Shown here: positions 4,360 through 51,370 of the stretch, in pieces | Numbering within the stretch: the first letter of the stretch is position 1 | Layout: each line of letters opens with the position of its first letter | Assembly: GCA_951406725.2 (NCBI GenBank) | Contig: OX597819.1 | Coordinates: 48,174,001-48,238,000, forward strand | DNA from: Octopus vulgaris | Taxonomy: Eukaryota | Direction of reading: 5' to 3' | DNA: 64,000 bases | The notes under the pieces: model-generated | Seen by the model: the letters and a program-made list of their open reading frames with translations, nothing else | Told to the model about the DNA's origin: nothing | Databases searched by the model: none | Program-made: the position numbers and the translations under genes

Positions 4360-4534
4360 CCTGAGCAGCTTGATCTGGTCGTCGTTGTTCCATAAAATCC
4401 CGGGTTTGTTTGATACCCTTATAGCTGATCTCACTCTGAATCTGAGTATTCTGCTTGATGCGTTGCAATTCTGGATCATCAGCAATGGTGATGAGTTTTC
4501 CTTTCTGTTTCTCAAAATCTTCATGATATTTAAT
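4360..4534 (-). CDS. Lasp: Lasp exon: canonical last nebulin repeat plus start of linker (IKYHEDFEKQKGKLITIADDPELQRIKQNTQIQSEISYKGIKQTRDFMEQRRPDQAAQG)
   Basis: tttcag acceptor, gtaaca donor, 175 nt, phase 0 to 1; within ORF 4310-4561. ADDPELQRIK resembles the LASP1/Drosophila Lasp second repeat. Confidence 0.92.
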
Positions 4535-4934
4535 CTGAAAGGTAAATAAGGAAGAACTCAATAAAATACAGAATATGGTTTACAATAAAGCTATGTAGAT
4601 GGGCAGAATTGGTGATAGAGTGAGTTACTTCAGCTATGAAAGTTCAGGAATACCTGTAATAAAGATTTAAACTGATTACATGGCTTGTTCAATTTTAGTG
4701 TCCATTTTTCCATGCTAACATGACCTTGACACGACTCGATCTTAACACAGGATTTTACAACCAGATGCTCTTCCTGTTACCAACCCTCACCTATTTTTTG
4801 GGTAAGGGATTTTTATACTCCACAGGTCTTTAAAAGCATAGAGTAATCGATAATAGTGTCAACAAGAAATGTCAATATCAACACTGCTTTGCTCATATGC
4901 TTAACAAATATCAACACTCTCTCTCTCTCTCTCG

Positions 4935-4966
<32 letters not shown>

Positions 4967-7208
4967 ATGGAATCAATACAGTTTTCATCAGTGAAATTCA
5001 CTCACAAGACATTGACCAGCCCAAGGCAATTGAAGAAGGCACCACCCCAAGATGTTGCAGAGTGAGACAGAACCCACTCTTAGCCACACAGCAATGCCTC
5101 TGTCTAAGCCATGGCTAAGTGGAGTATCAAATAAAACAGACAGGATTTGCAATGAGATATACAGATAGGCAGAGTCATTAAAAGAATTATTTTAACTACA
5201 GAGTTCTTCAGGAATACCTGTAACAAAAATGTTTATTACATTATGAAAACAAAATATAAAATGTCTCTACACTAGAATCTATGAGCCAATGAGGTAAGCA
5301 CTACGAGTCATTCAATCTGCAAGTAATAACAGCTAAATTCCCTTAAATATCACTCTAGAATATCAAAAATAGGACACATGGAACAATGTAGTTCTGGAGA
5401 TAAATATATATATATTTATACACATACACAAGTCACAGTTGGAATATTTTTGATTGTAGTTCTACTTAATCAGAGCTGACCAAAGACTAATTAACAACAC
5501 TTGAATCTAATTCCAATAAATATATTACAAAAAATGAACTGAATTAAGTAAAGCTAATGCATGTATTTGGTTCTAAAACCCCATTTTACACTTCTCTAGT
5601 AATCAGATACTGTCAATAAATATTAATAATAACCATAAGAAAAAACAACCAACAAAAATTAACTCATTACAAATTCAAGTTTTAAACTTAATATAAACCA
5701 GAAGACCAATTATCTAAGATGCCACAATTTATTTCAATAAAATCTGTTACCATATATCATATTCAACTAACCACAAACACAAGTTTACTTTCTTCTAACA
5801 TTTTTAATGGAAAATTGAATCGGCTTGAATTTGCACTTTGACTTCCCATCTGCAAAAATTCAGCCACAAAAATAAAATCCCAGCTCTCAAGAAATTAAGA
5901 TATATAAAAATAGTAACTGCTATGTCATTCTTTTCTGATAAGATTAGAAATTGCATTATTTAGAATCTTTACCGAGTTTTTAGTTTATAATACCACCAGC
6001 TGTGTATTTTCCATTTTACCTTGATATTGGACAAATTAGATATCCATGAAAACGTTCTTGAGTTTTATTTATTGTTAAAGTCTTGTACCAATAATGGTTT
6101 GTTTGTATGCTGTTGTTTTTATGGTAGCTTTAGAGTCTAGAGTTATTTGTACATCACAAATGGTTGGATTGAATAATCTGAGTGCCAAATGAGCACAAAG
6201 TCATAAGCTTAGCCTTGCTACAGACTCCAAACTCAAACATTAAGTAATTAAGCACCTTTATAAATAAAAATCAGTAGGATTCAAGAATTGAGCCACTATA
6301 AATACAGAAATATTTCAATAATGAGGGAAAAATACAATTTACTATCAAACATACATACACATACTGATATCCAGTAGTTGGCAGATTAGCAAAGACTCAT
6401 TGCTCCTATCTGCAAGATGATGATGCTACAACATATGCAGGGCCATACCCCACCTTAAAGGTAATCTGATTGACTGGCAATAAACTAGAACTGTTTACCT
6501 ATCACACATACACTAGAACTAGGTTAGACATGTCCTCAGACAAGATAAAGAAAGTGATTGCATCGTGGCACCAAAGTGACATCCTGTGGGGAAAAGAGCA
6601 ACAGAGTGCCCTAAAACCACATGGCAAAGGACCACTGACAAAGAAAGGAGACAAGCAGGGTGAAGAAGCTGGAATGAGACCAGAACAATGGCAGAAAACA
6701 GAGCTGGTTAGCGAGATTTTGGTGCAACTTCATGGCACAGAGATAAATAACTATCTACTACTACAATAACCTCTACTTCTCTGAGCTAACATTCTCCATA
6801 TTACCACTACTCAAATCTACCTCAAGTAGATGCCTTTTCACTTCTTATCATCCCTACTGTCTCATACCTAAAAATCCTTCACTCGATATCTCCAAATAAC
6901 AGAAATTCAAACCAAAACTTACCCATGTCAACCCCAGCAGGCCAGGGCAGGTTCTGCAATGGTCTTGAATGACACCCTTTTCCCTCCATCTAAACCAATA
7001 ACATTCACTTCTAACATTAGCACAAACCCCAAATTTGAAGGTGTCTTTAAATTTAATCAAATGAATTTTTATTTGACTGCCCTTAGAAGGGTGTCGGGTA
7101 AAAATCAACCCAGATAGGATTTGGACTTACAACATACAAGAGCTTATCTAAACAACACCAGCATTCAATTAATTATTTGGTGGCGGAGAAGCAATGTGGT
7201 TTCTGAAA

Positions 7209-7434
7209 TTAACCCTTCTATAACAACCCGCCTGAAACTGCCTCTGGTTCTGTAGTACAAATGTCTTGTTTTCAAAAGTTTTGAATTAAAATCTTCCACC
7301 AAACTTTAGTCCCAATTTATGTTCCTAACACTAGCTTAATAACTAAGTTATTTTACTAAATTCTTTGTTATATTTAAAATTTATTGAAAGAAACACAGAG
7401 CATCTCAACAGAAATATGGTATCAAAAGGCTTAA
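7209..7434 (+). mobile_element. TTAA-type MITE family B (other copies ~24267-24421 minus, 28207-28429, 37790-38010)
   Basis: ttaaccctt..gcctctggttctgtagtacaaatgtc..gaaatatggt..aaaaggcttaa shared between copies. Confidence 0.65.
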
Positions 7435-9218
7435 TCCCATACTGAAACAAGTAATTAATTTAACACTTCCAAGTTCCTAAAACTACTAATAAGCTTTTTG
7501 AAATGAGAGAATAGAACAATAATCCAGTTATTCTTAAAAACTATGGTTATAATTTGAGATACATAAATAAGAAAAGTATATAAACACTGGAGATATATAG
7601 CTGACTGGCTTACATGTAGACGATACCCAACAGATTTTTAATGAGAACTGGGAAATATCCCCCACCAACCACAATACATAAATGGCAATCAAGATACTCT
7701 TCATCAAAAATCTGTGATGGTTTTCTTAAAATGACTTCATCTTAATAGAAAATGTAATTCTTTTGAAATAGATATTAATTAAATTAAATTAAATATAGTC
7801 TAAAGCGATTTTAAATTGAACAAAGATAATGCTTCTAAATCTGAACATTAAAATAAATACTTGTCTATTTAATTCACAGAGATTAATCAAATGAAATAGT
7901 TAAAATAGGATTAACTCTTTGGAGTCAAAGCCACATACTGTTTCACAGTAAAGGAAACAAAACCATCTTAATAAGGAACAAAAATAACAAGGGGGTTATT
8001 ATTTAAAATACTATTTAAAAAGGGAAGCCTGAATTTTAAAAACAAAGCAAGACACCATATCATATCATATACAAAGTGCTACCAATATCTAACATGCAGA
8101 TCTTTCAACTGGTTGTGTCTGCAAATTATATATATATCTTGAAGTATGATCTTCTTTCCAGTACAAAAATGGCAAATTGATGGAGTAAATATGTACATAA
8201 AATAAACAAGATATGAACTGCCACTAAGGAACAAAGAAGAAAAAAAACAAAACAATATTTCTCATCAACTGTGCTATTATTGGTAGATACCTAACCGTCT
8301 CCCACCTACTCTCCTTTTCCAGAAATATACAAAATACTTGGATATTAGCACTATACCTGTATACATATGTGTCTGATGTGTATTATTATCACTTGGAGAG
8401 ATATTATCAGTTGCATAATATAAGATTCTCTCTCTCTCTCTCCCACTCTCTCCTATCAAAAGGTTTCACTTAAGTAGAAAACCTCATCAGTTATGTCATG
8501 GAAATGCTGACCTTACGGTCATAACTGACTCCAGTTATGTCAGTTTCAGCTCTTAAAACATACTTAGTGACAATCTAATGATCTTAAATGAAACCAGACA
8601 CTGTTTGCAGCCATTGAGTTTAGCTTTTCCAATACATTATTGGTCCTATAATATAATAAGGAATGAAATCTAGAAGAAATTGTTTTCCCCACTAACTTAT
8701 TTTTCTTTCATTTTTATTGCAATAATTTTTCAAAAATTTTCAGAGAGTTTTTACAAAAGAATGATGACTAAAACAAAAAAAAAAAAAAATGAACATGTAG
8801 TCTAACAACAGGAGCTGTTTATTTTTTTTTATTAGTTTTGGTGACTGAACTGCAGTTGTACTATGGTACCACTTTCAAGAGTTTTAATTTCTAATATTTT
8901 ATCTGGTGCTTATTTTTAGTGACCTTGTAGAGAATCAAAAGACAAACTGACCTTGGCATGAAGGGGCATAACTTGAGAGCAACTAATATTCCTTTTTACT
9001 ATAGGCACAAGGCCTTAAGTTTTAGGGGATGGAGATAGTCAATTACTCAACCCTAGTGCTCAACTGGTACTTATTTTATCAACCCTGAAAGAATGAAAGG
9101 CAAAACTGACATCAACAGAATTTAAACTCAGAATGTGAAAATAGCCAAAATACTTCTAAGCATTTTGCCAGATCAACTAACAATTCTGCCAGCTCAGTGC
9201 CTTAAAAAGTTGCCAGCA

Positions 9219-9295
9219 GGTGGCTATAGCGAATCAAACCCTGTCACCTCTCAGATAACAGCTGAGTGCTCTGTACTATTAAGCTAAGTGGATCC
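9219..9295 (-). pseudogene. tRNA-like (Asn GTT anticodon arm) pseudogene or SINE head
   Basis: tagcttaatagta A-box, ctcag-ctGTTat-ctgag arm, ggtttgattc B-box; the acceptor stem does not pair. Confidence 0.35.
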
Positions 9296-9858
9296 TGACA
9301 GGGTGGAACTAATATGGTGAAGTATTTTCATTTGATGTACTAAATTTGACCATCTCACATGCACACACAGAAACCTAGTAGGCTTCACAGTTTCTCACTA
9401 CCAAACTTACTTCATATGGTTTTGATCAACTTAATGTTATGGTAGAAGATACTTTGCTCAAAGTATCACACAACGGAGAGAGGAGGGGGTCACAACTACA
9501 AAGTCACAACTTCTCAATCACATGGTCAAATTTATGAAATCATAAACCTAAGAATCAAGTTATAAAAGATTTAAAATAATCCAAATAGCATTAAATAAGA
9601 TCATAAAATTATTAGATAATCCCTGTTAGTTTTGAAGAAAATGATTCCTAAAATAAAAATAAATTATGCAAGTAGACACTTTGAAAGGGGGGGGGGACAT
9701 CAAACTTCAAAATGAGAAGGGCTAAATTACTATATTTGAAAATTAGAAGGGAATTTAGAAGTCTAAACTTAGCTCCTGTTGTATGTATGCTAAATTAAGA
9801 TGGAAATGATGATGAATGGACAGTAATGAAGCTGAGTGAGCAAGACAACACTCAGTAC

Positions 9859-9966
9859 CATGCTGGCATTCTTGGCATTTTCCAGATGTCTCTTCATCTC
9901 GATAGAATCTGCTGTCATTTTCGCTGCAGACCCTTTCTGCTTTTCAAAGTCACTGTGATACTGAAT
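9859..9966 (-). CDS. Lasp: Lasp nebulin-repeat exon (IQYHSDFEKQKGSAAKMTADSIEMKRHLENAKNASM)
   Basis: tgcag/gtactg boundaries, 108 nt, phase 0-0, open frame. Confidence 0.9.
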
Positions 9967-12811
9967 CTGCAGAAGTCAATAAATTTAACTTTAACCCTAT
10001 CCCAAGATTCAAAACATTTAGGCAATTTTAATTTTGAAATTACAAGGTTTTTTTTTTTTAAATGAGCACTTTTGCTTTTGTATTTATTTTTCATTTTATA
10101 AAAAATTGTAAAACTCTGTATAAGGAAATTCTGATCCATTAAAATTACATTCTTTAAGAGGAATTTTTAAAAAGAAAATTAGTTTTTATTTTTAAAAAAC
10201 ATATATTAATATATTTATATTTGTAACGAAAACTTTCATACAAGAATATTTTAATTATATAAAGAAATTTAATATAAATAGTGCATTTGTTTGGTTATTG
10301 TGCAAATGACATGAGTTTTGCAACTGCAAGGAAATAAGTGCAGATCTCTGCTAGCACTGGTAATACTTCAACCAAACATTCAAAGTTTGCAAAAGCTTTT
10401 AAAACATTTAAGGAATCAAGCAACTCTGGGATAACAAATCAACAACAACTTACCATTTAACACTTTAGCCATGGGAATTTTTCTACCTGAAAATTTTCCA
10501 GGTGTTATTTATTGTTGCTAATACTAGTGGTTGTTGAAAACAGCTACTCTCTATGTGGGGGTGACCATTTTAATGTGATACAGGATATTTGATGAATCAA
10601 GAGCACATCCTAGATTGGATTTCTATTTGGAATCATTTCAAATATGTAGCCAATGCCCTTGAAATATAGTTCACTTGCTCCCCTCTAGAATTTTAATGCC
10701 TAATATAAAAAAAATTATTACTAACTACTGATGAATGGATCTAATTTTTGAAGGCTTTGATTTAACAGTTCATGTATATTCCTAATATCCTCTGGAAATT
10801 AACAAACTTCTATCCCAGATTGAAATCATTTACTACTACACATTATATTCTGTTCTCTTCTATGAAACAAGTTGATTGTTTGATAGTGGACTTAAATGTA
10901 ATTTGCTTCCCAGCACAACACAGTCATGCAGAGATTGAGAAAAGAGATGGAAAATTTTTGTTTAAATTCTAGTATAAGCTCACACAGCAACAAAATAAAG
11001 AACAAACAACTATTAATTTAGCAATTAAACAAAACTCAAGTATCTGCATTCAAGATGGTAGGAAGGTACTCTAATACTGCCAATTTGTGTACAGATGATA
11101 GATTTTTGAACATTCTAGTAACTGTATGTACCTCATTAAATTGAGACCAGCGGGTAATAACTTTTGAAACAATGAAATATGTTAAGGTCTGCCTATTTTC
11201 CCAGATGATACCAATCATCAAATGCTAAAATTAAGGATGTGTACTCTAAATAAAACTAAAAAGTGAAAACAAATGCTTGAAAAAAAGCTAAACCAGTCAA
11301 AAAACAGAAGTTAAACTAAACATTGAGACATGTGAAGCTGCTGTTTTAAGACCAATTTCTACAAATAGAACATGATTCTAGGTGGATAGATGTCCAGCTC
11401 AGTTGCTGCAGTTTCTAATTGATGCTAAAATAGATTTCAAACATCTTTTTAACACGGCAACCTATGTGTTTTCTGCAGATTCGTTTTATCACATAAAACT
11501 TTGGTATGTTTGAAAAATGAGCTTAAAGGGGAAAAAATACACTAGATTTCAGGAGATACTAAGTTACTACAACACCATATAGTATGTAATAAAGTGAAAG
11601 CCTTTTAAAAATGTTACAAATGATATTTACTTGATAAAATTCAAATTGATCTTTTTCAGTCTACAGCATTTAAAATTTGTCCTGATAAGCTATTTCTCAA
11701 AAAATACTTCATCAGATGATTACAAGAACTGTACTAAGAGCATCTCAATCTCTCTCGAAATTCCAAAATTTTTATAGCAGTTCAGCCTCCCTTGATACCA
11801 TAGCAACAAAGCTACACTGATATCAGCTTAGTAAATGAAATTGTAGTAATGGTACATTTACTTTACTCCAGTTAGAAGATAAGTTTAACATCAGTACTAA
11901 AAATATTCAGATACTTCAGTTCCTTCTTTTTTTAACACTTACGTCAATGTTTTCCTTGTTTTAAAGAGAGTTTATGGTTTCATCAATATGTATGTAAATG
12001 GCTATTTATCCAAACTTGCCTAGATCAAACTGGCCTACTTGCCTATAACTCATCACACTGTAAGTAAAGGCTATGCTTTTGTAAAGCCTTTATAATGTTA
12101 TATATCCACACATAAACATCCTACAAAAATATTCAGTAGGAGGAACATTTTCAATTAGAAAAAATGACTGATGCTTCAAAAGATAAAATAGTTAGTACTG
12201 GACATGAATGACTTTGAAAACTTATTCATGTCTTCACTAAATGAGTATAGTTAGATTGAAGAAATGCATTCAAATGGAAATGAACTATGAATCTCTTGAT
12301 AGAGCCTCACCATGTGAACAATCAAAGATGACAGTAGTTAACTGACCCATTCTGATAATGAAAGGGCTTCAATGAATTATACAGTCAATCTTACCAGCAA
12401 TCTGTAAAGAGTCGGTAAACAATGAACTGTGCAGCCAATCTTACCAGCAATCTATAGAGACCCAGAAAACCTTTAGATTCTACCAATAACTTAATTTCGT
12501 TAATAACCCTAGAGAACTGTACAGTTTCCGTTATCTGATACATTTCAAAGTACTGTGCCAAAAATAGATTTATTGTTGAAGAAAAGGTTTGTAATAGTTT
12601 TCTTTTTTTTTTTTTTCATTTTGAAATCAAGTGTATTTTTAAGGAAAGCTAATGTATTAAAAAATTAGTCAAGTTTCTAGATAATTTAATTCAAGTAATC
12701 AATTTAATTTAAGTAATCAATATTTAGCATCTTGATAAACCAGAAAGGTAGGGATAAAAAAAAAAAAGGCGACTAACTGGAGCAACCAAGCCAAACTAAG
12801 TGAGTTAGTAC

Positions 12812-12919
12812 CGCACTGAGGTTCTTGGCATTTTCAGCATGTCTTTTCATTTCAAGAGACTCCACAGTCACTTGAGTGGCTGTCCCTTTCAGTTTAGTAA
12901 AATCACTTCGATAATGCAT
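12812..12919 (-). CDS. Lasp: Lasp nebulin-repeat exon (MHYRSDFTKLKGTATQVTVESLEMKRHAENAKNLSA)
   Basis: cacag/gtacta boundaries, 108 nt, phase 0-0, open frame. Confidence 0.88.
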
Positions 12920-14770
12920 CTGTGAATGTTAATAGTAATTTCCACAGACATGAAACTAATCAGTTTCTTTGGTAAATAGAATACAGAAAAAAATATATAT
13001 ACTAGGACAAGGAAGACTAAAATAATTTATTTTCATTAAATAAGTCAGAAGCACAACAACAAATACAGAGAACCACATTTCAAACAATTCAACTTTACAT
13101 TGTATTGACATTTGGAGAAGTATATTTAGAGAAATTATTTACCTCTCCTGGATTTAGAAAACTGTGTTCAATGCAAAAGTTTTTTTTAAGTACCAAACAG
13201 AAAGACAATGAAATTTAAATAATTTTTTACAATAGATACTGGCTAAAACCTAGAATCAATAATAAATCACAGGTGAATATTAAAAAAATAATAAAGGAAT
13301 AGAAATGTTTAAAAATTCTGTCATCAAATATCAAAACTGTTTTGGCCTAAAAAACAGAAAAAGAAATGTTATATAAGTAATGATCTTTATAAAGGGAAAA
13401 AACAGCATATATGTGCTTGAGTGTGCATATATATTTATAAATATACATTCAATGTACATTACTTTAAAAACTTTCTGTATAAAAAAAAATTTTATGTCAA
13501 GTGCAATTCATACCATTTTTTATAAATAATATGTGCAAAAATAGGCGTGCACTCGCACATATATGCAAACAGCAGATATTTAGTCTGAGATAAAAGGTAG
13601 AATATTTATTAGAATAAAAATCATATATATATAATGGCTGTAAATGTTTCAGACATTATAGCTCATTAACAATATCAAATTAGAGGTTATCTGAAATCTC
13701 TGTATCTAATCTCTACAGAGATAGATATAGTCTCGTATACAATAAACTATGCTCAAACGACATAGTTACATGCTCAGACAAGAAGAATCCAATGAACAAT
13801 TCAAATATCCCTTTATTTTCTGTACATTCACTAGTGTAACAATTTAAAGTAAACAAACTGACTGAAGGATAAATATCAATAGACAAACCTGCATCTACTT
13901 CTTACAATCTGGGTTTTGTCATGTAGCACTATAGAAAACATTTCATCTAAAACATTGTATAAAGAGATCTAGCCAAAAGCTAGGTATCAAATATTGTCCA
14001 CAGACATGAAAGAGAGAATAATGGAGATACACACACACCCACTAGAAACCCATACAATTGGTTCAATAGAACTGTATCATAAAACTGTACTGGTTTCAGA
14101 AACCAGAAAAAATAAAAGCCTAGTCTGATTTCACTGACTAGCTTCAGTTGTAGAATGAATAAAAGAGTAAATGAATAGAAGTGGCTAAAATGGAAAATGA
14201 GCATTTCATTCTTCTGTTGAAAAACTGACCAAATTGTATGTAGATACTAAATATTATTAGAAACAACAAACATGGAAGGTTATATTAAACTGGAAGTAGA
14301 AACTTTGATACATGCTAAAGTGATAAAAATTGAACATGTTTAATACTTTAAAAAAAACAACACACACCAAAATAATAATTTTTTTTAACACTTAAATGTT
14401 ACTAGATATTGAAGGATTTGAAGGAGTTTTATTACAATTATACTTACCTCTAAGTATGTATATGTATCAATAGTATATCTAGTTTCACAAACTAAAACTA
14501 GATTAGCTAAATAAAAGGAAGTGATATAAGAAGTGGCGGAGCAAAAGCTGGTTGAGTATCAAAGTGAGTTATAAATAACACAATACTCAGTGTGTGCCTT
14601 TTCAACAAGACATGCTGTATTGATTGAAGGGAAGTCAATCATTCTAAACAACAGAAAAGTGATCAGGGGTAAAGGATAAAACTGGATGGAGAAGATGGTT
14701 AGTAGCACAAAATTGTAATGCCAACAGGCAATTGATAATTTCATGCTATACAGATATATATAATTTGTAC

Positions 14771-14875
14771 CGAACTAATGTTCCTTGCATTTTCTGTGTG
14801 ACGCTTCATTTCCAAAGTGTCAGCAACGGGTGTGACGTTACCTTTCTGCTTTTCGAAGTCACTGTGGTACTGAAT
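14771..14875 (-). CDS. Lasp: Lasp nebulin-repeat exon (IQYHSDFEKQKGNVTPVADTLEMKRHTENARNISS)
   Basis: gacag/gtacaa boundaries, 105 nt, phase 0-0, open frame. Confidence 0.9.
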
Positions 14876-15006
14876 CTGTCATAGGTAATTTCACAGCAAA
14901 TAAATTATCATCATCATTAAGAAAGGAATACAGAGACATAGCCAATCTGATTAAGAAGTGTTTCTAAAATTTACATGTAGAGAGCATCAAACAAAATCAT
15001 TTCAAG

Positions 15007-15007
<1 letters not shown>

Positions 15008-15045
<38 letters not shown>
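15008..15045. repeat. (AT)n microsatellite
   Basis: Direct observation. Confidence 0.95.
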
Positions 15046-15048
<3 letters not shown>

Positions 15049-17624
15049 TTTGATAGAATTTGAAATAGATAAAGTTATAAATAGTAATGTGTAAAATATT
15101 AGGTTTAAAAAAACCTTGGAATGGAAACAGTCATAGGCTGCCTGTGGGACTTGAACTCACATCTTTTGTAAACATGACAGATGTTCTACAACTTTTTCCA
15201 TCCAAGGTTTTTTTAAGCCAATATTCCACAGGCCAGGATATCATTTATAGCTTTATCTACTTCAAGTTCCACCATCTAAAGCAGTTGGTTTCATATCTCT
15301 CAAAAATTCTAAACTCTTATGATGTAAGAAATATATATTGTAACATGACCTTTAAATTTCTATGTATGAAGTGTATCAGTTAAATTACTAAGAAGAAATA
15401 CAAACAACTTTCTATATAAATTCTATAAACACAATCCTTCCTACTTAGTATTTTAATTTAAAAATTAATAATTAATCTGTAGAAATTGTCACTTATTCTA
15501 TTACATTAAAAAGAAAATATTCTTTTTAATGACTTTCTTTTTCTTTTTTATTAAGAAACAGAAAAAAAACAACAAAAAAATGCAACTCTAAAATTCTGTT
15601 TTCTCAAAGTTGCTGCCTAACATTTTTAAAATGTTTTACATGATGGTAATGAATCAAACAAATTGGTACTGAATTAATTTTTCAGTTCATGACAAATAAA
15701 AAAAAATACAATATTAAAAACATGGGAGAAAGGAATAAGTCTTTATTAATAATTTCACAAAAAAAAAAAAAAGTGCTGAAACTACTACTATATATAAATG
15801 CATATACATACATGTGTATATGTTAAATATATGTTTGTGTATATACATGTATATATATTTGTTTATATGTATATACATGTGTGTATATATTCATACATAC
15901 ACACATGTAAGTAGGTTGTGCATTTATTTGTAAGAATAATTTTTTTTAGAAGTAAGCTATTAAAAAAAGGGGAAAAGAAAACCTATTTCTACATTTAGTG
16001 AGATTAGTAAAACTAATGTAAGACAAAACTTTACAGAAAAACAGATAATCATAGATTTCATAGCTGTCTTAATGTCACTGAACTAGAGTGGAAGTTCCTT
16101 ATTATGGTTCTGTGCAGTTAAGAGAATAAATATTTTATTTATTGCATTAATCTTGGAACACTAATCATTTTCTATGTCCAATTTTGAGACATTAATCAGT
16201 TCCTGTGTCCTTTGGATAAATACAAGAGTAATTCCTGGTCAAAATACAACCTATAACTACATTGTCCTACATCCACATAATCAATATATTGGAGCACTAA
16301 TTGAGTCAACAGTCGATATACTTGGCTACAAATTGAGCTTACAGGATTGCCTGACATGTTAAAAATAACAGCTAAATCTCACTCAAATCATGCCTTACTG
16401 TCAAAGAAAGAACACATTAAATAATGTGGTTTTAGATATACTATAAATGAAAAAAGAAAGAATTGACATGGTTTGCTCAATCAAACTGGCCTAGAGCACT
16501 AGTACAATATCATCCTAAAATTATATTCACTTCTTCAGTCATATGAATAATACAAACAAAAATAAGCTGGTACTGAGTCATATTTTTTAAAAGCATCTAA
16601 CATCATCAACAGATAATGTAAAATAGCAATGTTTAAAAATGTTGAGCTAGGAGTTAATTTATAGCAATATTCTTATAAAATGTTGGTGTGCAAAAGAAAT
16701 TGCTCAAAGATTATGAAAAGTGGTGACTGAAAATAAAAATATTTCTATAAAATGAAAGGTAAGCACCACAGAAGTGATTTTGATTCCCAGTTTCAATTTC
16801 TGGTGTGGAAACTTCATGTTAAGATCTTTCAAAAAATGAGAACATCATAATTCATTGTAGTACATGGTGTTGAAGGCACCTGTTTATGGATCCCTCCCTA
16901 ATTACAAAATATCACACTATTGTTTATCATAAATAGATGAAGTATTAAATATCTATAATTAAATTCTCTTTTCATTTGTTTTTTTAATATAACTAGCAAC
17001 TCAAATTTCAGCCCTTAAATTTTGAGAAATTTCTTTTTTTCTCAATAAGTGAGAAAACTTTTCAGATTTTACACTAATAAAAATAAATGAACAGTAATGA
17101 CTAGCTATTTTTCAAAAATATTAGTTAATTTAGAGAAGAAAACAGAAACAGGCACACTTATGATTTTTTTTAAAAATTGGGCTCAGAAAACACATTATTT
17201 TAAAGAGTAAAATATTTTTGAAATGAAGTGTTACAAAAAAAAAATTGAAAATGTTTTTTTCTAAAATTTCCATTGTGTCTTGATTAAACTATATATTCTT
17301 AAAATTGACTCTACATCACCTAACATCACATGAGGAATATAAATCTTTGTTACTAATAGAGCCAAACTCAAGAATATTATTGAAAATTTTAATATCTGAA
17401 TATTTAACTATCCAAATATTAAAAGTTGAAACTAAATATGCTACAATCATGTCAAATATATAATGCTCTTATTAATTTCACAATACAAAAATGATATCAC
17501 CAAAAAAAAAAAAAAGGATTAATATTTTCATTATTTGTAGTGCAGCAGAATCAATGGATCTCAGAAAACTAGTCAACACCAAATGGCAACAAACAACCCT
17601 TCCATGCATCATAACTTTATATAC

Positions 17625-17729
17625 CAGACTGATATTTTTGGTGTTTTCCAAATGTTGTTTTATATCCATAGGTTCTGCTACCATTGTATAGCAACCTTTC
17701 TGTTTCTCAAAATCACTGTGGTAGTTTAC
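17625..17729 (-). CDS. Lasp: Lasp nebulin-repeat exon (VNYHSDFEKQKGCYTMVAEPMDIKQHLENTKNISL)
   Basis: gatag/gtatat boundaries, 105 nt, phase 0-0; overlaps ORF-track ORF 17478-17684. Confidence 0.9.
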
Positions 17730-18678
17730 CTATCAATGGATCAAAAAAACTTTTATTTCTTATACTTACAAATATGATCGATATAGTGAGTTGTCAAACA
17801 AATTATTTCTCTGCTGAACTTTTGGTTTATGTACCACATTAGATACAAGATGCATTAGAGCATAAGCTTTTAGTGAGCCATGTCAAGTTTGTGATTCTCA
17901 GTTGGAACCATTAGATAACTTGCCCTTGATGTGGTAGATCAATTCTTGAAGAGTGTTCTAATGGATCGGAGGAGCCCTTTTAGTTTATTATACTCAAACA
18001 GATTTCATTCCCCCACAATTAAAATTATCTACATGTATAAGAAATATAATTTATATTCCTCATGTCAGAACAATTTTAGTGTGGAACCTGTTCCAGATCT
18101 TAAAATATGAGTAGTCAAGCACCATATACATCTTAGTACTGATTACTCTAACACAAACATCATGGTTTCCAGAATACCTGGAGATCTCATTTGATCCCCA
18201 CCTTAGACAAACTGATAAAAATAAAGATTTTTAAACAGTAGATAGTGAGCTCACAATCTTTTGAATTAAAGCTTAAAATATAGTCAACGTTCCATCCCCA
18301 CCCCATGCCAATAACATCTAAGATGCTTTACAGGAATATGTCATGCTCCAATATTTTTGTAAGTCTATACAAAAAAAATTTCATTACTGAATATGGAAAG
18401 TTATTCATTACAATACTATAACATTATCATTTGCAACTATAATTATGAATCTATAAATGTAACTTATTTTCCCTAATTTACATTAAGGCCTTAATATAAA
18501 TAAATAAAAATTTAATGCAGGTTTAAAACTGGCCATTACTTCAATAATGCCTAAATTTAGAGAAAATCTCATCTTAAAAAATATATTGATAAATAACTCC
18601 CATGTCATAATAGGGGGGAAAAATAGAGTAGACACACGTGGGATAATTATCTTAATCATGCATCATAATTTAATATAC

Positions 18679-18783
18679 CAGGCTGATGTTTTTTGTGTTT
18701 TCCAAGTGTCGCTTTACATCCATAGGTTCTGCAACAGCAGTATAGGAACCCTTCTGTTTCTCAAAATCACTGTGGTAGTTTAC
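18679..18783 (-). CDS. Lasp: Lasp nebulin-repeat exon (VNYHSDFEKQKGSYTAVAEPMDVKRHLENTKNISL)
   Basis: aacag/gtatat boundaries, 105 nt, phase 0-0, open frame. Confidence 0.9.
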
Positions 18784-19201
18784 CTGTTAATGGATCAAGG
18801 AGGACTTAATAATGTTGTTTTTTCTCTACCACTATTATTGTGTGTGTGTGTGTGTGTGTTTGTGTGTGTGTATGTGTATGTATATTTGTGAGTGTGTGTA
18901 ACATATGGAAGCTTATTGACTAAAAATACAGATTACTGATTATTTGAAGAAAAAAACTTTTAAATAGTTAAATAGAAATTGTAATCGATATTAAAATGTC
19001 AATTATAAAAACTAGATCTTAATAAAATCTCTGCACATAATTCAAAAGCTTTCATGACTTCACAATTATTCATAAATCCAATTGCAGATATACTTTACAA
19101 AGTTATTTTCAAAATTAACAAAATAAATGTTAAAATTATCTCTCTTACAATAAAGTTAAAAAAAAAAAAAAAAATAGGGTATCAATTTTCACAATTTATA
19201 C

Positions 19202-19306
19202 CAAACTCATGTTCTTTGTGTTTTCCAAATGTTGTTTCAATTCAATAGGTTCAGCTACAGCAGTGTAAGAACCCTTTTGTTTTTCAAAGTCACTGTGGTA
19301 GTTGAC
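19202..19306 (-). CDS. Lasp: Lasp nebulin-repeat exon (VNYHSDFEKQKGSYTAVAEPIELKQHLENTKNMSL)
   Basis: attag/gtataa boundaries, 105 nt, phase 0-0, open frame. Confidence 0.9.
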
Positions 19307-20235
19307 CTAATCAAGTACAAATATAAGCAGCTGTACAAAAACCAAAAAGGAAAAAAGTACCACATACCATAACACTGTTGGTAGTAAAGATGAAAGTGTA
19401 AAACTTTAATAATATAAACTTATAAATTCACCAAAAATAATTAATTGCTAATACAGCAATTTAAAATAAAAGAAAATAAGAAAGCCAAAGAATTATATTT
19501 AAAAAAAAAAAACTATTTTATATTTTTGAAGTTAAATATATGTATACAAGGTAAAATTACGCTAGAACATCCCCAGAAGTAAAGAAAATTTTCAAAATAT
19601 TTTAATTATAAATATTAATATAAGACAATTTTTTCACTCAAAACATAAACACTATCTTGATGTGAGGTATACATCACTACATCATAATAATTTGATAAGT
19701 AAATTATTTGAAAATTTACTTATCAAATAATTTACTAAGTAAATTTAAACAAACATTTTGTTATTTCATTCTTGCTTATATTTTTTTTTACATATAATCT
19801 CATGAAACAAGAATGGAAACATAACAGGTTCAAACAGTTTTGTTCATTTTTCTTATTTTTTGCAAAATGTGCAAACATTTACAGGTGAAGAAATTTTAAA
19901 TTAAGGAAATGCTTTGGAACAAAACTAAAAGAATAATTGATTAGTTATAAACAATTGCAATGTTAAGTAAGTAAATGGTTATTGAAAACAGAAAAATCAA
20001 AACAAAGACTGATTTGAAAATTACTATTTTTAAATCTCACAACGTGAGATATTCGGCAACAGTACTTTGTAGTAAAGATTGTTTGCCAACATAACATGGC
20101 AGTCCTGGTTTAAGATGGATGTTGCTGTAATTTAGCCTCAGGAGACATCGTCTCCAGCTGGCTATACGACACGATCTGTGTCCTTATATTTTCGAACAAG
20201 GGAATCTAGCACCCCCACTCAGCTCAAAACAATAC

Positions 20236-37493: not shown

Positions 37494-37598
37494 CAAACTT
37501 GCATTCTTTGTAGCCATCAAACACCGTTGCATATCAGGGTTGTCTGCTACAACTGTGTACTTGTCCTTGTTTTTCTCAAAGTCCATGTGGTATTGTAC
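37494..37598 (-). CDS. Lasp: Lasp nebulin-repeat exon (VQYHMDFEKNKDKYTVVADNPDMQRCLMATKNASL)
   Basis: ttccag/gtatga boundaries, 105 nt, phase 0-0, open frame, YHxDFEK nebulin motif. Confidence 0.9.
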
Positions 37599-40296: not shown

Positions 40297-40335
<39 letters not shown>

Positions 40336-41075: not shown

Positions 41076-41289
41076 CTGAAACAAATATATATATATATAT
41101 ACACACACAAACATAATAATAATGATATTAGGGAATATTATTCCAAACTTACAGAGAAAAATTCTATCTAGTAATACTAAATCAAATTTCACAATATATA
41201 ATATGTATATAAATTAGAAAAAAAATCACCTTTTATCAATTCATTGTTGAATTGATAAAAAGTGGGTTTTTTCTAATTTATATATTTTA

Positions 41290-41691: not shown

Positions 41692-41723
<32 letters not shown>

Positions 41724-42845: not shown

Positions 42846-42934
42846 AGAATATTACAAGACATGATTTAGTTAAATTACAGATATCAAATACATGAAATGG
42901 TTTTTTTTTAGTACTATCATTATTATTATTATTT

Positions 42935-43480: not shown

Positions 43481-43484
<4 letters not shown>
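42935..43484 (-). mobile_element. R4/Dong-like 3' fragment
   Basis: ORF 42947-43195 VKIVPIII..LQKVCLLGTARIIRKLL; (TTA)n on both flanks. Confidence 0.78.
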
Positions 43485-43512
<28 letters not shown>

Positions 43513-43513
43513 A

Positions 43514-43740
43514 AGTGGCTAGCTAACAGATTTGTTAACATGTTAGACAAAATACTTAGCAGGATCTCTTCCTGCACCTTAAGTTACGAGTTCAAATCCT
43601 GCTATGGTCAACTTTACATTTCATCATTTTGGGGTCTATAAAATAAAGTACCAGTCAAGTACTGCAGTTGGTGTAACTGACTTCTACTTCCCTCGAAATT
43701 GCTGGCCTTATACAAAAATTAGAATTATTATTATTATTAT
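43514..43740 (+). mobile_element. SINE family with gagttcaaat..ggtcaacttt..tttcatc core (other copies 8990-9203, 57720-57930, 59930-60133, all minus)
   Basis: Mutual similarity across copies; often adjacent to (TAA)n/(TTA)n. Confidence 0.65.
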
Positions 43741-46177
43741 TTGATTTGCTTTATAGCCAGAAAGTTTTTTTGACTTCAGTTTCATCAGAAAGAGCATTGA
43801 AAATTAGAAACATTAAAGAGAAAATTAGTATTGATTTCATTTAAATACAATTCAACTATTTGATTGATTTAATGATCTAATTTTCATGCATATATAACAA
43901 AGTTGTATAAAATATGCGACCAAAATATCAATGATAAGACAGTACCACTTTAAAAAAAAATTAGAGTATTAATAGGTTGATCAGATAGATTATAAACCTC
44001 TCTACTGAAAGTATATTTTAGTCATCTTTTAGTCTATGAGCAAACACACTTTGGGTTATATGTAGAGTTTGGTCCCTAAAAATGATTGAAGAATAGAGCA
44101 AGTGAAGCTTGGTGTAGATAGAAATAGAAAATTGACAATAATGTGATGAACCTATATTGTTTCAGTAATAATTCATCTCAAAAACAAAGGCATAAAAGAA
44201 TGGTGCAATCAGCCTCAATGGGATTTGAAATCTTAATGTAAAGGCATATTTTCAGCACTGTACCTATCCTACCATTCACATGTAATAAATAACATAAAAT
44301 CACACATACATACAAAAGAGATGGGATGTCCAGGTAATTAAAGTAGTACACAAGAACTCAATGTTAAAAACAGAATATTGCATATGAATGAATTATTAGA
44401 TTCATTCATAATATCTGTATTCACAAGACTGTGTTGGCCTCTCACACCCACCCTACAATGTCATTCTGAAAACAATCACATCATCAAAATCTCTGAGTTA
44501 CATGATACAGCATGATTAATTCAAAACAATATGAACAATTGAACATTATATTTGACAGTGTAATCTGAATACTAAAGGATACAACAATACTTTGTGGAGG
44601 TTGCAGTTACCATACAATAATGCCTTTCAACAAATATTACCACAATCAGTTGTTCAGTATCATCAATGAGTAATTAAAACAGTGAACATACTTAGAGTTA
44701 AGATTTCTGCTGTCACATATGGAACTAAACCATGAATTATGTCTTTTTATGAAGTTTTTATAACACTGAGAATTCAAATAGTTGCATTTATATAATACAA
44801 AAAATATGCAGTAGCCAAATAAAAAAAATATTTATTCCATTTAGTTTTATTTTGATGCATATATACATCTAGAAATTTACATAATATTGAGGTCTGTTTC
44901 TTTCTTTTGTTCTCTTACCGTTTTTACCAATATATATATATATATACATATATAGACATTATTTCATTACAAGGTTAATTCTAACATCATATACTTTAAA
45001 CATTCATTCTATATAGAACAGATTTCTTATAAAAGGTAAGAAAGAATCAACTCCCATTTTAATTCTGTATATATTTTCTGTTTGTATTGATAAGATTCTC
45101 AATGACAAAAATCTTTTCAGTACTCTGTTTATAGATTCAAACATTTTGAGGTAAAAATATCTTTTAAAAAAACCCACAAAAATGTAGGTTTTAGGTAATC
45201 TAAGATGGATATCTCTCATCAAGATAATTTTTGCAGACACCTAAATATTTGATAATCTATAAAAGCAAATGATATCAAACTTTCCCTTAAAAAAATCTTT
45301 TCAGCATTTGCAGAAGCATCACAACTGCATTAGAATTTTGTATGAGTAAAATTAATTTATTTTTGTTTGCTTCTTTCTTATTTTTTTTTACACAGTTCAA
45401 TCATGCTAATTGTTACTTAATTCTAGTGGCAGTTATCAAACAAAAATATGCATCACCAACTTTAAAAGCAAAAACTTATTAGGATGAATAGGGATTTGCT
45501 TTCAGCTGAGTTGTAGCAAAAGCATTTACTATTCATCATCATCATCGTCGTTTAACATCTGCTTTCCATGCTGGCATGGGTAGGACGGTTTGACTGAGGA
45601 CTGGTGAGCCAGAAGGCTGCACCAGGCTCTTATCTGATCTGGCAAAGTTTCTACAGCTAGATGCCCTTTCTAACACCAACCACTCCAAGAGTGTAGTGAG
45701 TGCTTTTATGTGCCACCGGCACAAGGGTCAGTCAGGAGGTTCTAGCAACGACCACGCTCAAAAGGTATTTTTTTTACATGCTACCTGCATGGGAGACAGT
45801 CCAGCAGCACTGGCAACGACCATGTTTGAACATTGTTCTTTTATTTAATGCTATCTACTGGTTGAAAGCTAGCTTAAAACTGAAGAATTAAAAACTTTAA
45901 ATGTTTATACAACTTCCTAAATTGAGTGAACCTTCATGAGCCCTACTTTTCTTAATTTAGACATTATTGTAAAAATGCATGTGAACTGTGCATGAAAATA
46001 GAGTTCATGAACCAACCAATTCTTCAAAAGTGATAGAACAATCCTCAGAACCCCTAAACAATTTGTTCATTTTGTTTTTTCTTATTCAAATCCATCTTTG
46101 ACATTTTCTAACACACAAAATGTTGTCATATGTAGATTTCATACAAAACACTGTTGATGTCTTGCATATATTACTGA

Positions 46178-46251
46178 TACACAGTAGCCCAAAAGTCATG
46201 CTATCATTCAATCTATATTAATAGGTAGCACAAGTTTTGGGCCACCCTGTA
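46178..46251. mobile_element. Tc1-like miniature inverted-repeat element
   Basis: Imperfect TIRs related to TACAGGGTGGCCCAAAA. Confidence 0.45.
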
Positions 46252-47147
46252 TTATAAATATTGATGTTAGAACACTGAAACAAGTGAATGTAACCTTCAG
46301 AAAACGTAGGATTTAAGACTGGGTTTATCTTAAATCATACTCTGGAAAATGATACCATGAGATCACACATACAATTGTGTAGTGGCGCTAATAAATATAT
46401 TCCTAAAGCTCTAATAGGTCATGATACCACAATGTCACTTTGGTATAAACATTTGCATAAACTCAGGAAGGATGCAGACTGCAAATAATTTTGGGGCTGT
46501 AAAAAATGATTATTCTACTCCCTATTATGGCTCTCAACTAAACTGTGGGAATCAAGGACCTGATGAAACTGGAGTTGATTGTATCAGCTGCACGAAAAAT
46601 TTAGGTTTTAAGCACAAATATTACTAAAAACACAAATATCATGTTTCCATTGAAACAAAAATGACTTTCTGTGAAGACAAATGTATTAATGTTTATACTC
46701 TAAAATCAGAAAAAGAGATATTTGAGACAACAAAATTGCAAATACATAATAAAAATGATAAAGTAAATAAATATAACTTTTTCTTTCAAATCTAAAGAAT
46801 AATCATGGTAATGTTAGAAACAAATGTATGAAACTATTGTGTATTTCCAACAGTGTGTAAACAAATGAAATCTTGAAAGTTTCCTGCCACTGTTCCCACT
46901 CTAAAATAATCAATGGATTTTAAAATGGAGGAATTGTGATTCAATAAATACATAGCAAATTTGAATAAGTTCAAATGTAGAGAATTTTTGTAAAATTTGA
47001 AAATTTTATGAACTGATTTTAACTAAATCAGACTGCCATTTGTTACCTCGGATTCTAGTTTTTATTTACAAATTATATCTCTTCTGATTAAATAGCAACC
47101 CCTGACATTTAAAAAAAAATTTAAATAATGATTTATTTGTTCATCTA

Positions 47148-48019
47148 CTGTTATACTTGGAGGAGATGGTCATATTTTGCCAATTAAAGATAATAAGCAT
47201 TATATGTTTCGTCTTTATTTCAGCTTTATTATTATTTTTGTTTCTTTGTCAAATTTGTGTCACACATCCTATGACTCTTTATTCCATGTGTGTCCTCTTG
47301 TTCTGCTTATCCCATTTTCCGCTCTTTCATCACACATTCTGTGACCTCTTCAGTGATTCTTTATCCTACTTATCCAGCTTAGTTCATTTTTTATTGAAAA
47401 TGGACTGAGTAGGACAAGAGGAGACATATGGGATAAAGAGTTGCTGCTGAAGAAGTCGCAGGGTGTGTGACAAAAGAGCTTTGACAAAGAAACAAAAATA
47501 ATAAAGCTGCAGTAAAGATCTTATACAAGGCACAAAGAAGCCAGTACCATTTTCAAACAGCAAGATTTCGCCTGCAACCATTACCATACACGAGACAAAA
47601 ACGAGATCTTGCCTGCAACCATTTTTTAGGGAAAAGACAACATTTTCCCTCTCATTCTTTTCACACTGATGCCGAGCAAGACTTCGAAGCCAGGAGCTCA
47701 CAGTGGACTTTTGTCCCACTGTGATACCATATGCATTGTCTCCAGAGGTTATTGAATCTCGTGTGTATGGGAGAGAAGGCTAACTACACACAGCTGTGAA
47801 GATGGTTACTGAAAGCAAACCCCTTGTATGAAGCACCTCTGAATAAACAGTTATTGAATTTACTCCGCTCGTATTTCCTACTCCTTGAATCAACAGAATA
47901 ATTATAATGGAAGGAGATATCACCAAAGTATCATAAAAACCTTCCTTCCATTGTAGATCAAATATATAGCATGTGTGTGTGTTTAATTGGCAAAATATTA
48001 CCATCTCCATGTATAGCAA
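47148..48019. mobile_element. ~870-bp non-autonomous TIR element with TA flanks
   Basis: ~40-bp imperfect TIRs (ctgttatacttggaggagatggtcatattttgccaattaaa versus the reverse complement at ~47979-48019); TA at 47146-47 and 48020-21; no transposase ORF. Confidence 0.7.
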
Positions 48020-49938
48020 TATCTGTTTCAACACACGATTTCACATCAAGAACCATGTGAAACAAATACATAAATGTAATATTAAATAAGTTGGTCATCA
48101 GCCATTTATTAATCACAAAAACAAAACTAATATAAAAAGAAAATTAATAAATAAATTGATAATACATTAAAATTAAAAACATTAAACATATACTTAAATT
48201 AACATATTAGAATGTTAAGTAGTGTAAGTAAATCCTGCATGCAAAGCATGTGATCCAACACTGCTATGTCTGCTCTCACTAAACAAAACAAAAAAATAAT
48301 AATAATAATCCTTTTTAATGATGATTTTTATCTTGGACGTAGGGTTAGATTTTTATGGGGCAGGTGTGGTCAATTTTATTGATCCCTGTATTTTGGCTGA
48401 TATTTGGTTTATCTGCTCCAAAGGATAAAAAGTGTAGTTGGCTTCAGTATTAAGCTCAGTATATAACAGCATTGGTTTTTTTTTCTCTCCTCACTAGACT
48501 ATTAGCTGTGAGTTAGTTATAATCACAGACTTACAGCTGTTATCAATTTCCTTTTTATCCCTGATAAAAGCAAAAAAATGCCCAGATAATTAGAGAATAA
48601 AATCTACCTCCTATAAATGTTTTAGAAGCAAAAACTTCCTCTACTTTTATAAAAAGTTACATTGTACATAAAGAATATTACATAAAATTTATGAATCCCT
48701 AAAGAATAAAATAAAATAAAGTTGTTAAGTTAAGAAAAAAAATGGGAAAAAGCAAGACACGTGGAATGAATATTTAACTCTAAGTTTTATAAAGACAGTG
48801 TTTCACACGCAGACTATATATAAGGCAAAAATAACATAGTGGGGGTCAATTACTAGTGTCTTCTGGGACATTTGAAGGACCTAATTAATAAAAGGATCTA
48901 TTCAAGAGGAAATTACTAAATTACTTCCACTTGCAATTTGATGCAGTTGGCATTTCGAGGATGGATCCAATCAGACTGGTTGTAAAAAGATAGAGATACT
49001 CATGGGACAATTCTTAAAAATATTATACTGAAATGAAGAGATAAAAATTCCTCTGAAAATATAGATTTAGAAATATATCAAAAGAAATCATTAATTCAGA
49101 ATGAGAAACAGATGAATAAAGAAGTCTCACATATGCAAAAATAATAATGTGCTCCCCAATAAATTTCATTCTTTAAAACCAAGAAAACAATAATAAAGAA
49201 AAAAAAAATATCATAGAAGAACAAGACATTAGCAAAAAAATATTAATCTACATAAATTATATGAATAATAAATAGAACAAAGTATTTATATCAGAAGTCC
49301 TTTAATTTTGATTAAGATTTAATTACTTTCATTCATGGAGACAGAATCAACAAAAAATAGAACTTAGAAAAAGAAAAAGAACATTTCAACAAATAACTTG
49401 GGAGGTTTTACTTGGAGAGATTGTTAAATATATGCAATTACATTTAGTTATGTAGTCATATTTAACATATTCTTATGCAGCTGGTCATGGAAAGACAATA
49501 TGCTGTACAAGTTATCTTGAAAGAAGAAATAAACTCCATGTCCAAATTTACATGAACATGTTAAATATAACTATATAAACTATATTTCATTCAACACTGC
49601 TTAATGCTCATCTAATTAGTATGCAATCATATTTAAATGAACATGCTTACACAGCTGGTAATGAATTTAGGAATGTAGGTTCAATTTTTACATGATTTTT
49701 AGCAAATTTCTTTTCTTTTCCATCCTTTTCTCTGTGTGTGTGATCTTTTACAGGGCATCACCATGAATTCTTTTTAGTCAAATAAATTGACCCCAGTATT
49801 TATTTTTTGTTAAGCCTGATACTTATTCTAGCAGTCTCTTTTGCCGAACCACTAAGCCATAGGATGTTAAGATAGCAGCACCAGCTGTCAAGCAGTGATG
49901 GGGGACAAATACAAACACACACACACACACAGATACAT

Positions 49939-49998
<60 letters not shown>

Positions 49999-51285
49999 TA
50001 CATATATGATGGACTTCTTTCAGTTTCTCTCAACCAAATCCACTCACAAGGCTTTGGTCAGCCTGGAACTATAGTAGAAAACTCAGAACCATGTGGTTGG
50101 GAAGCAAGCTTTTTACCACAAAGCCACAAATATGTTGTTTTAAAACATTCTCACTCTTTAATAAAGGACAGTAAAATTAATTTCTCACTATTGTAAGGAC
50201 TTAGGAGGTATTCGCTACACTGAGATTCATATATATATCTATATACCTATATCATCATCATCCGCTTTCCATGCTAGCATGGGTTGGACGGTTCAACTGG
50301 GGTCTGGGAGCCAGAAGGCTGCACCAGGCCCAGTTTGATCTGGCAATGTTTCTACGGCTGGATGCCCTTCCTAACGCCAACTACTCCATGAGTGTAGTGG
50401 GTGCTTTTTACATGCCAGACGAGTCTGGCAAACGGCCACGAACGGATGGTGCTTTTTACGTGCCACCGGCATGAGGCCAATATATGAAAGATATATAACA
50501 TCCAGAGAGCTAGGTGGTATTCAAGAAAGTTGAAAACTAACTTTCATTTAATATATTCAGCTTTTAGTAGCTCAATCATCTACTTATATGTACACAAACT
50601 TCCAAGTAAAATATAATAATTCTAACATCTTAAATCAATTTAACTGCATATATTTAAAATGCATGTGTGTGTGTGTGTGCGCGCGCGCGCTTTGAATTTA
50701 ACAACAAAAATTTTTTTTTATTTCCTATGAAACACAATTAGAGAATCTTTTTTATACATTATTATAACAGGAAAAAACACCCTGAAATAGTGAAATATAA
50801 ATTAATTCAAGTTGATAACATGCCAACAAGTTATTTATTATTTTCTGAGTACTCATTTCCATTTTATTTTTTTTTTCATTTAATTAATATATGTCATGAC
50901 CATAAATTTACACAAGAACCATTGGAGACAAATTTCATGTATCTAAAGTATTCTAGAATTCAAAATATAAACAATAAAAAGAAAATTCAGGTATAGCAAA
51001 AAAGCAATGCAGATACTAAATGATACTATACATTTTATGACCTAAATAAACTATATTAAGAAAGCATAATTTAAAATAGGTTGTTTTTTTTTTTCAATAA
51101 GAAAAAATTACAAATTTAGACAAATCAATTAATTCTATAACTAAAAGTTAAGTTGTGTGTTTAAAAATAAAAAAAACATGGCTGAAAAAGATGCTTTAAT
51201 ATTACATAGATAAGTTTCTTATTAAAAAAAAAATGTTATTTGAAATTAAGATAAATAATTACAAACAATAACTGAACCAACTTAC

Positions 51286-51370
51286 ACTGCTTTGAATTTT
51301 AGTGTTTGTAGCTATCCTCCTGTTTTCGGGAGTATCGGCAACTGAAGTAAATTTCGTAGTAGGATAGTGC
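51286..51370 (-). CDS. Lasp: Lasp exon: end of LIM domain plus first nebulin repeat (HYPTTKFTSVADTPENRRIATNTKIQSS)
   Basis: ctcag acceptor, gtaagt donor; 85 nt, phase 2 to 0. The translation resembles the LASP1 segment [28 protein letters not shown]. Confidence 0.92.

What the first reader, a model, noticed from the sequence alone, without database searches (positions are those of the whole stretch)
4360..51370. Lasp gene with seven extra single-repeat symmetric exons: a spliceable 2-to-9 nebulin-repeat 'mini-nebulin'
Seen: joining 51286-51370 directly to 4360-4534 gives an in-frame, canonical two-repeat Lasp. Between them lie seven phase 0-0 exons of 105/108 nt, each exactly one nebulin repeat, so any subset keeps the frame and rebuilds the SxxxY motif across each junction (9 motifs in total). 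Known: vertebrate LASP1 and Drosophila Lasp have two repeats; each repeat binds one actin; nebulin super-repeats contain seven repeats, matching one tropomyosin/troponin unit. Inference: an independent molluscan expansion producing a muscle nebulette-like isoform; the count of seven may or may not be coincidental. The WLKGIGW super-repeat motif is absent.
Basis: partly seen in the sequence, partly recalled or inferred. Interest (0 to 1): 0.78.

Follow-up and report, generated by a model that had tools for sequence, protein, structure and literature searches.

The report
Octopus Lasp with optional nebulin repeats
The octopus Lasp gene carries seven extra one-repeat exons that are spliced in or out to give a protein with two to eight repeats, which likely grips actin filaments over a tunable length, and similar arrays of different size occur in other molluscs, so the number seven is likely a coincidence.

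Summary
Seven phase 0-0 exons of 105/108 nt, one nebulin repeat each, lie between two constant exons of an Octopus Lasp gene on the minus strand. They are alternatively spliced. RNA contigs join E5-E7 in two runs and E6-E7 in another. Public isoform records carry 2 to 8 repeats; none of 37 joins E5 to E6, so the nine-repeat form is unsupported. Seven is not a super-repeat: other molluscs have 1, 3, 4 or 8 extra units, E2-E4 are recent single-exon copies, and the troponin motif is absent. The extra units mostly group together, apart from vertebrate nebulin repeats. Their 3' halves resemble the first repeat, so the founder exon likely arose by duplication of repeat 1 across its intron. The closest analogue is nebulin's alternatively spliced Z-repeats. 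A muscle role is inferred, not shown. Unnamed invertebrates also have three-repeat Lasps, so the first extra repeat may predate molluscs. The isoforms are already annotated, but nine paper searches found no description. Verdict: new variant of a known kind, moderate interest.

The parts
51286..51370 (-). Constant 85-nt exon: end of LIM linker and first half of nebulin repeat 1; strong splice sites (GTAAGT donor, pyrimidine tract 0.90)
37494..37598 (-). Cassette E1, 105 nt, phase 0-0, one repeat; counterpart in a squid/cuttlefish-like record
19202..19306 (-). Cassette E2, 105 nt; recent copy of E3/E4 (86 and 83 of 105 nt identical)
18679..18783 (-). Cassette E3, 105 nt; TGCATG 17 nt into the downstream intron
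17625..17729 (-). Cassette E4, 105 nt; 91 of 105 nt identical to E3, homology runs a few bases into the flanks
14771..14875 (-). Cassette E5, 105 nt; spliced directly to E7 in RNA contigs of runs X2 and X4
12812..12919 (-). Cassette E6, 108 nt; spliced to E7 in run X1; in records it follows the 85-nt exon directly, not E5
9859..9966 (-). Cassette E7, 108 nt; spliced to the core exon in 4 of 4 runs laid
4360..4534 (-). Constant 175-nt core exon: second half of repeat 1, the terminal repeat and start of the linker; no intron at its internal SxxxY motif

Best explanation
This is an octopus Lasp gene whose seven optional one-repeat exons are spliced in different combinations to give two to eight nebulin repeats, which likely lengthens the stretch of actin filament the protein grips, probably in muscle. 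Shown: exon anatomy, alternative junctions in RNA, and two usage patterns (E1-E5 plus E7; E6 plus E7), with a no-cassette form in records. Shown by comparison: arrays of 1 to 8 such units in bivalves, gastropods and cephalopods. Inferred origin: a tandem duplication running from the middle of the 85-nt exon, across the intron, to the middle of the core exon would make a 105-nt symmetric exon with both splice sites ready-made; single-exon copying then grew the array separately in each lineage. Inferred function: each repeat would lie on one actin subunit, so the eight-repeat form would span about 44 nm of filament, with the SH3 end held at the Z-body or dense body, like nebulin's optional Z-repeats.
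For: Splicing: joints 4534/9859 in 4 of 4 runs, 9966/14771 in X2 and X4, 9966/12812 in X1, all with CT..AC ends at the exon borders; 11 different junctions in 36 records scored exactly. Regulated-looking sites: all seven donors are GTAT or GTAC and the tracts are 0.50-0.65 pyrimidine, against 0.85-0.90 for the constant exons. Selection: E2/E3/E4 differ at 13, 12, 8 silent against 5, 6, 4 replacement codons. Actin contacts named in 10.1101/2021.10.06.463400 (passages): S18, Y22, K30 and D/E3 kept in 7 of 7 octopus units. Origin: cassette 3' halves score closer to the 85-nt-exon half than to the core half in 44 of 48 (BLOSUM) and 36 of 48 (profile); at position 4 the first repeat has T in 15 of 15, the core D in 20 of 20, and the commonest cassette residues are T 21, P 10, S 10, N 5 of 48. 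Tree: all 52 mollusc cassette units on one side of a branch, SH-aLRT 81. Muscle role by analogy: fly Lasp sets thin-filament length (PMC4137052, passages and section 9).
Against: No tissue labels, so muscle use is untested; vertebrate lasp-2 is mainly a brain protein. The cassettes lack three other contact residues: K11 in 0 of 7, D19 in 0 of 7, K23 in 0 of 7 (H in 6, R in 1). S18 and Y22 were required by my segmenting rule, so their conservation is partly built in. In lasp-2, actin binding needs the LIM domain together with repeat 1 (PMC2761545, abstract), so extra copies far from the LIM domain may add little. The chimera signal is absent at DNA level (23-27 vs 25-30 of 57 nt), and 11 of 19 nebulette repeats also lean to the first repeat by BLOSUM. 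Trees rest on 35 columns; in a second tree 3 of 36 cassette units fell outside the group. In flies it is repeat 2, not repeat 1, that is needed for filament length.
Confidence: 0.6

Rival explanations
1. The first extra repeat is older than molluscs: an ancestral three-repeat Lasp had a symmetric middle exon, which molluscs made optional and multiplied and which arthropods and brachiopods lost.
For: Vertebrate lasp-2 has three repeats. Six unnamed non-vertebrate-like proteins among the best 150 HMMER hits have three units (P0231, P0233, P0247, P0257, P0294, P0297). One unit of P0257 is cassette-like in its 3' half.
Against: Fly, ctenophore, sponge and sea anemone Lasps have two repeats (PMC3305314, passages). 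Ten named non-mollusc records and five Lingula isoforms have two motifs. The extra units of the unnamed proteins that entered the tree fall with core-type repeats, not with the mollusc cassettes.
Confidence: 0.3
2. The seven cassettes form one nebulin-like super-repeat that matches one tropomyosin/troponin period, and a nine-repeat isoform is the functional product.
For: The count is seven, and all seven join in frame. A squid/cuttlefish-like assembled record joins E5-, E6- and E7-like units (P0006).
Against: E5-E6 in 0 of 37 Octopus records; the longest annotated form has six cassettes. X2 and X4 skip E6. Counts differ between molluscs. E2-E4 are near copies. No tryptophan or WLKGIGW in any cassette. 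The one record with E4-E5-E6 joined (P0279) ends in an intronic frame seen and looks like an ab initio model.
Confidence: 0.05
3. The cassettes are spacers or tolerated duplicates: they change the distance between LIM and SH3 but add no actin binding.
For: Loss of K11, D19 and K23; counts vary freely between lineages and several mollusc records have none.
Against: Silent changes outnumber replacements; units are near-identical between Octopus species and kept in Argonauta and decapodiform-like records; K/R30 is kept in 52 of 52 and D/E3 in 50 of 52 mollusc units. The non-basic position 11 is also the normal state of repeat 1.
Confidence: 0.12
4. The long forms serve non-muscle actin, such as neuronal filopodia or adhesion sites, as vertebrate lasp-2 does.
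For: lasp-2 is brain-enriched; different runs use different cassette sets; the downstream motifs seen (TGCATG) are recalled to act in neurons as well as muscle.
Against: Every well-studied protein with more than three nebulin repeats is a muscle protein; fly Lasp works in sarcomeres.
Confidence: 0.2

Closest known systems
Lasp family (vertebrate LASP1, Drosophila Lasp, C. elegans F42H10.3)
   Same: LIM, nebulin repeats, variable linker, SH3; the no-cassette isoform is the canonical two-repeat protein (Pfam 2 stretches).
   Different: Repeat number varies by splicing (Pfam 2, 4 and 8 stretches); fly isoforms differ only in the linker (PMC4137052).
Vertebrate nebulin Z-repeats
   Same: Single-repeat units that are alternatively spliced, sit just before constant terminal repeats and an SH3, and vary in number between species (5-18; PMC7754682, passages).
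   Different: Z-repeats are 31 aa with an SSVLYK motif in a giant protein; here 35-36 aa behind a LIM domain, and they group apart in the tree.
LASP2/nebulette (NEBL)
   Same: One gene gives short and long repeat arrays ending in the same terminal DDP-type repeat and SH3; the newt nebulette terminal repeat groups with the mollusc core repeats (SH-aLRT 88).
   Different: Nebulette has over 20 repeats and no LIM domain (PMC3305314); here the LIM is kept and the range is 2-8 by cassette choice.
Nebulin and N-RAP super-repeats
   Same: Same repeat family (PF00880).
   Different: No seven-unit period and no WLKGIGW troponin-contact motif.

Membership tests
Lasp (LIM and SH3 protein) | N-terminal LIM domain | tested here: met
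   PF00412 at residues 5-58; exons mapped upstream of the window
Lasp (LIM and SH3 protein) | Nebulin repeats directly after the LIM domain | tested here: met
   PF00880, first stretch 67-94 in the two-repeat form
Lasp (LIM and SH3 protein) | C-terminal SH3 of LASP/nebulin type | tested here: met
   PF00018; best solved matches are LASP1, nebulin and nebulette SH3 domains
Lasp (LIM and SH3 protein) | F-actin binding | not testable with these tools
   Contact residues partly kept; no binding assay
Nebulin super-repeat | Tandem seven-repeat period | tested here: not met
   One set only, at most six used together in records; 1-8 extra units in other molluscs
Nebulin super-repeat | WLKGIGW troponin-T contact motif | tested here: not met
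   No Trp in any of 7 cassettes
Nebulette | More than 20 simple repeats, no LIM domain | tested here: not met
   At most 8 repeats; LIM present in full-length records
Nebulette | Cardiac or striated-muscle Z-disc expression | not testable with these tools
   Runs carry no tissue label
Nebulin Z-repeats | Alternatively spliced single-repeat units before the terminal repeats | tested here: met
Nebulin Z-repeats | 31-residue length with SSVLYK motif | tested here: not met
   Units are 35-36 aa with S[LMSA]xxY[HR]

The most novel reading that the evidence does not exclude
Molluscs independently evolved a splice-tunable mini-nebulin from Lasp, by duplicating repeat 1 across its intron and then copying the new exon. 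Fibre types pick 2, 4 or 8 repeats to set thin-filament anchoring or Z-body width, converging on nebulin's Z-repeats. The series from clams (1 extra) to abalone (8 extra) would be a living record of the first steps from Lasp to nebulin.
Probability: 0.3. Interest if true: 0.7.

Novelty: new variant of a known kind. Interest (0 to 1): 0.45.

Why it matters
Invertebrate Lasp is usually described as a two-repeat protein, and long repeat arrays as a chordate feature. A mollusc-wide, optional array shows the expansion also occurs in protostomes. It gives small natural proteins (2, 3, 4, 6, 7 and 8 repeats from one gene) for testing an open question: how repeat number changes actin-filament stability and Z-disc width. 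It also offers a concrete route by which a symmetric repeat exon is born.

Tried and rejected
Pfam Nebulin search of the genome found nothing, and nothing in its controls, because the model spans exon junctions. Only the stretch 3500-15700 was laid with reads, so junctions of E1-E4 and the direct 85-nt-to-core join were not seen in RNA here and rest on public records. No listed run is on record as RNA; the spliced joints show that those laid are. AlphaFold2 on one sequence gave mean pLDDT 38 and was discarded. Atlas searches returned only nebulin-family clusters. An inverted-repeat scan of 9000-20000 for a pairing that could explain E5/E6 exclusion gave only low-complexity AT-rich pairs among the 25 of 226 shown. 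Intron flanks of the cassettes show little homology beyond E2-E4. TGCATG lies within 100 nt downstream of 3 of 7 cassettes (nominal p 0.002), but three window sizes were tried and E3/E4 are recent copies, so it is only a lead. AU tests rejected neither one clade of all cassettes (p 0.64) nor one clade of cephalopod cassettes (p 0.18); the grouping of E1 with abalone and Gigantopelta first units (93) was not recovered. Earlier-findings look-ups were empty. Three key papers were not held. No complex was predicted, because the partner is a filament.
Full report
Observation. On the minus strand, an 85-nt exon (51370-51286) and a 175-nt exon (4534-4360) join in frame, and seven phase 0-0 exons of 105 or 108 nt lie between them. 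A strict scan finds 7 such exons on the minus strand and 0 on the plus strand; 30 shuffles gave a mean of 0.03. A repeat HMM over 264 kb finds no missed exon.

The gene. Mapping the longest O. sinensis isoform places the LIM exons about 90 kb and 21 kb upstream of the 85-nt exon, and six linker exons and the SH3 exon up to 29 kb downstream, about 167 kb in all. A genome search with the core exon matched only this locus, 4 matches among 9 candidates. Pfam gives LIM, SH3 and 2, 4 or 8 nebulin stretches depending on the isoform.

Splicing. I laid 4 of 24 listed runs on 3500-15700. E7 joins the core exon in 4 of 4. X2 and X4 join E5 to E7, skipping E6, in one unbroken contig. X1 joins E6 to E7 and shows no E5-E7 joint. 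The table showed 15 of 34 joint rows, so rarer joints may be hidden. Among 37 Octopus isoform records retrieved, 21 have E1-E5+E7 (one of them O. bimaculoides, scored by similarity), 7 have no cassette, 1 has E6+E7, and 8 have other subsets; none joins E5 to E6. Not every annotated isoform was retrieved (15 of 20 members of one cluster were listed), and such records combine junctions computationally. Argonauta also has E6+E7 alone; a squid/cuttlefish-like record joins E5-, E6- and E7-like units. So the supported range in octopus is 2 to 8 repeats. All seven donors are GTAT or GTAC with weak pyrimidine tracts, unlike the constant exons. TGCATG follows E1, E3 and E4, and ACTAAY follows E5, E6 and E7; their reading as RBFOX and QKI sites is recalled, not tested.

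Spread. Extra units at the same slot occur in Haliotis rufescens (8), Gigantopelta (3), Aplysia (1), oysters (up to 4), mussels (3), scallops (3) and clams (1), and an unnamed gastropod-like protein has at least 9 units. Records from Lottia, Biomphalaria, Littorina, Dreissena, Potamilus and three other abalones have none, which may reflect annotation depth. Only the best 120 of 622 hits were listed. Ten named non-mollusc records and five Lingula isoforms have two motifs. Against a clean molluscan origin, six unnamed non-vertebrate-like proteins in the best 150 of a full HMMER search have three units, and two long unnamed nebulin-like proteins could not be placed. Seven is therefore a lineage-specific count, not a period.

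Origin. In a tree of 153 repeat units, all 52 mollusc cassette units form one side of a branch (SH-aLRT 81), apart from core, nebulette, nebulin and N-RAP units (quick tree, 35 columns). A smaller tree kept 33 of 36 together and placed the unnamed proteins' extra units with core-type repeats. E5-E7 form a coleoid group (91 in both trees), and E2-E4 are recent copies under purifying selection. The core exon has no intron at its internal motif, so simple copying of it would not give a 105-nt exon. The cassette 3' halves resemble the 85-nt exon's 3' half instead: 44 of 48 by BLOSUM, 36 of 48 by profile, with matching residues at positions 4, 12 and 15. I infer a duplication of repeat 1 across its intron. 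Against this: no signal at DNA level, and 11 of 19 nebulette units lean the same way by BLOSUM, 6 of 19 by profile.

How it likely works. In native thin filaments each repeat spans one actin subunit, through D3, K11, S18, D19, Y22, K23 and K30 (10.1101/2021.10.06.463400, passages). The octopus cassettes keep D/E3, S18, Y22 and K30 in 7 of 7 but lack K11, D19 and K23. At 5.5 nm per repeat (PMC7754682, passages) eight repeats would cover about 44 nm. Fly Lasp sets thin-filament length, and its SH3 aids Z-disc localisation (PMC4137052, passages and section 9). I therefore favour a muscle role in which cassette choice tunes filament grip near Z-bodies, at about 0.6. Binding and tissue are both untested.

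Comparison and novelty. It is a Lasp by every sequence feature tested. It is not nebulette and has no super-repeat. It works most like nebulin's alternatively spliced Z-repeats, without being one. The isoforms are already in RefSeq under automatic names. Nine searches of the held library found no paper describing molluscan extra repeats; two searches returned 0 papers. I saw passages of PMC3305314, PMC12198301, PMC7109182 and PMC11070823, the abstract of PMC2761545, and passages plus the introduction of 10.64898/2026.10.05.756842. Fujita 2021, Bjorklund 2010 and Pappas 2011 were not held; I saw nothing of them, and they or their supplements may already note this.

Verdict. Real, spliced, mollusc-wide, and a new variant of a known kind. 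The super-repeat idea and the nine-repeat form are not supported. Interest 0.45.

Noticed in passing
window 3500-15700, run X1: Unspliced (intronic) cover is mostly about 25-55 downstream of E6 but 5-15 upstream of it, and E6 begins with ATG (also in Argonauta). This could be intron retention or an internal start giving a LIM-less form; contig depths cannot decide.
   Followed up: no
window 58827-59738 (+): A 303-codon open frame in the intron, on the opposite strand to Lasp, with a weak zf-RVT match (E 0.009); it looks like the 3' end of a non-LTR retrotransposon.
   Followed up: partly
downstream flank, about 1-23 kb beyond the window's low end (L001-L003): Six small linker exons (12, 16 and about 4 codons among them) are also alternatively spliced, giving a second layer of isoform variety between the repeats and the SH3.
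   Followed up: partly
about 73 kb beyond the window's low end, + strand (L018): An exon-like frame resembling Enhancer of polycomb (recalled resemblance) marks a likely neighbouring gene.
   Followed up: no
protein P0227 (unnamed): A gastropod-like Lasp fragment with at least 9 repeat units, six of them near copies of a type different from the octopus cassettes: a separate recent burst.
   Followed up: partly
window 7250-7420 and 8980-9205: Two short high-copy repeats in the intron before the core exon collect very deep RNA contig cover, likely SINE-like elements.
   Followed up: no
window 62573-62792: A 66-nt tandem repeat of 3.3 copies.
   Followed up: no
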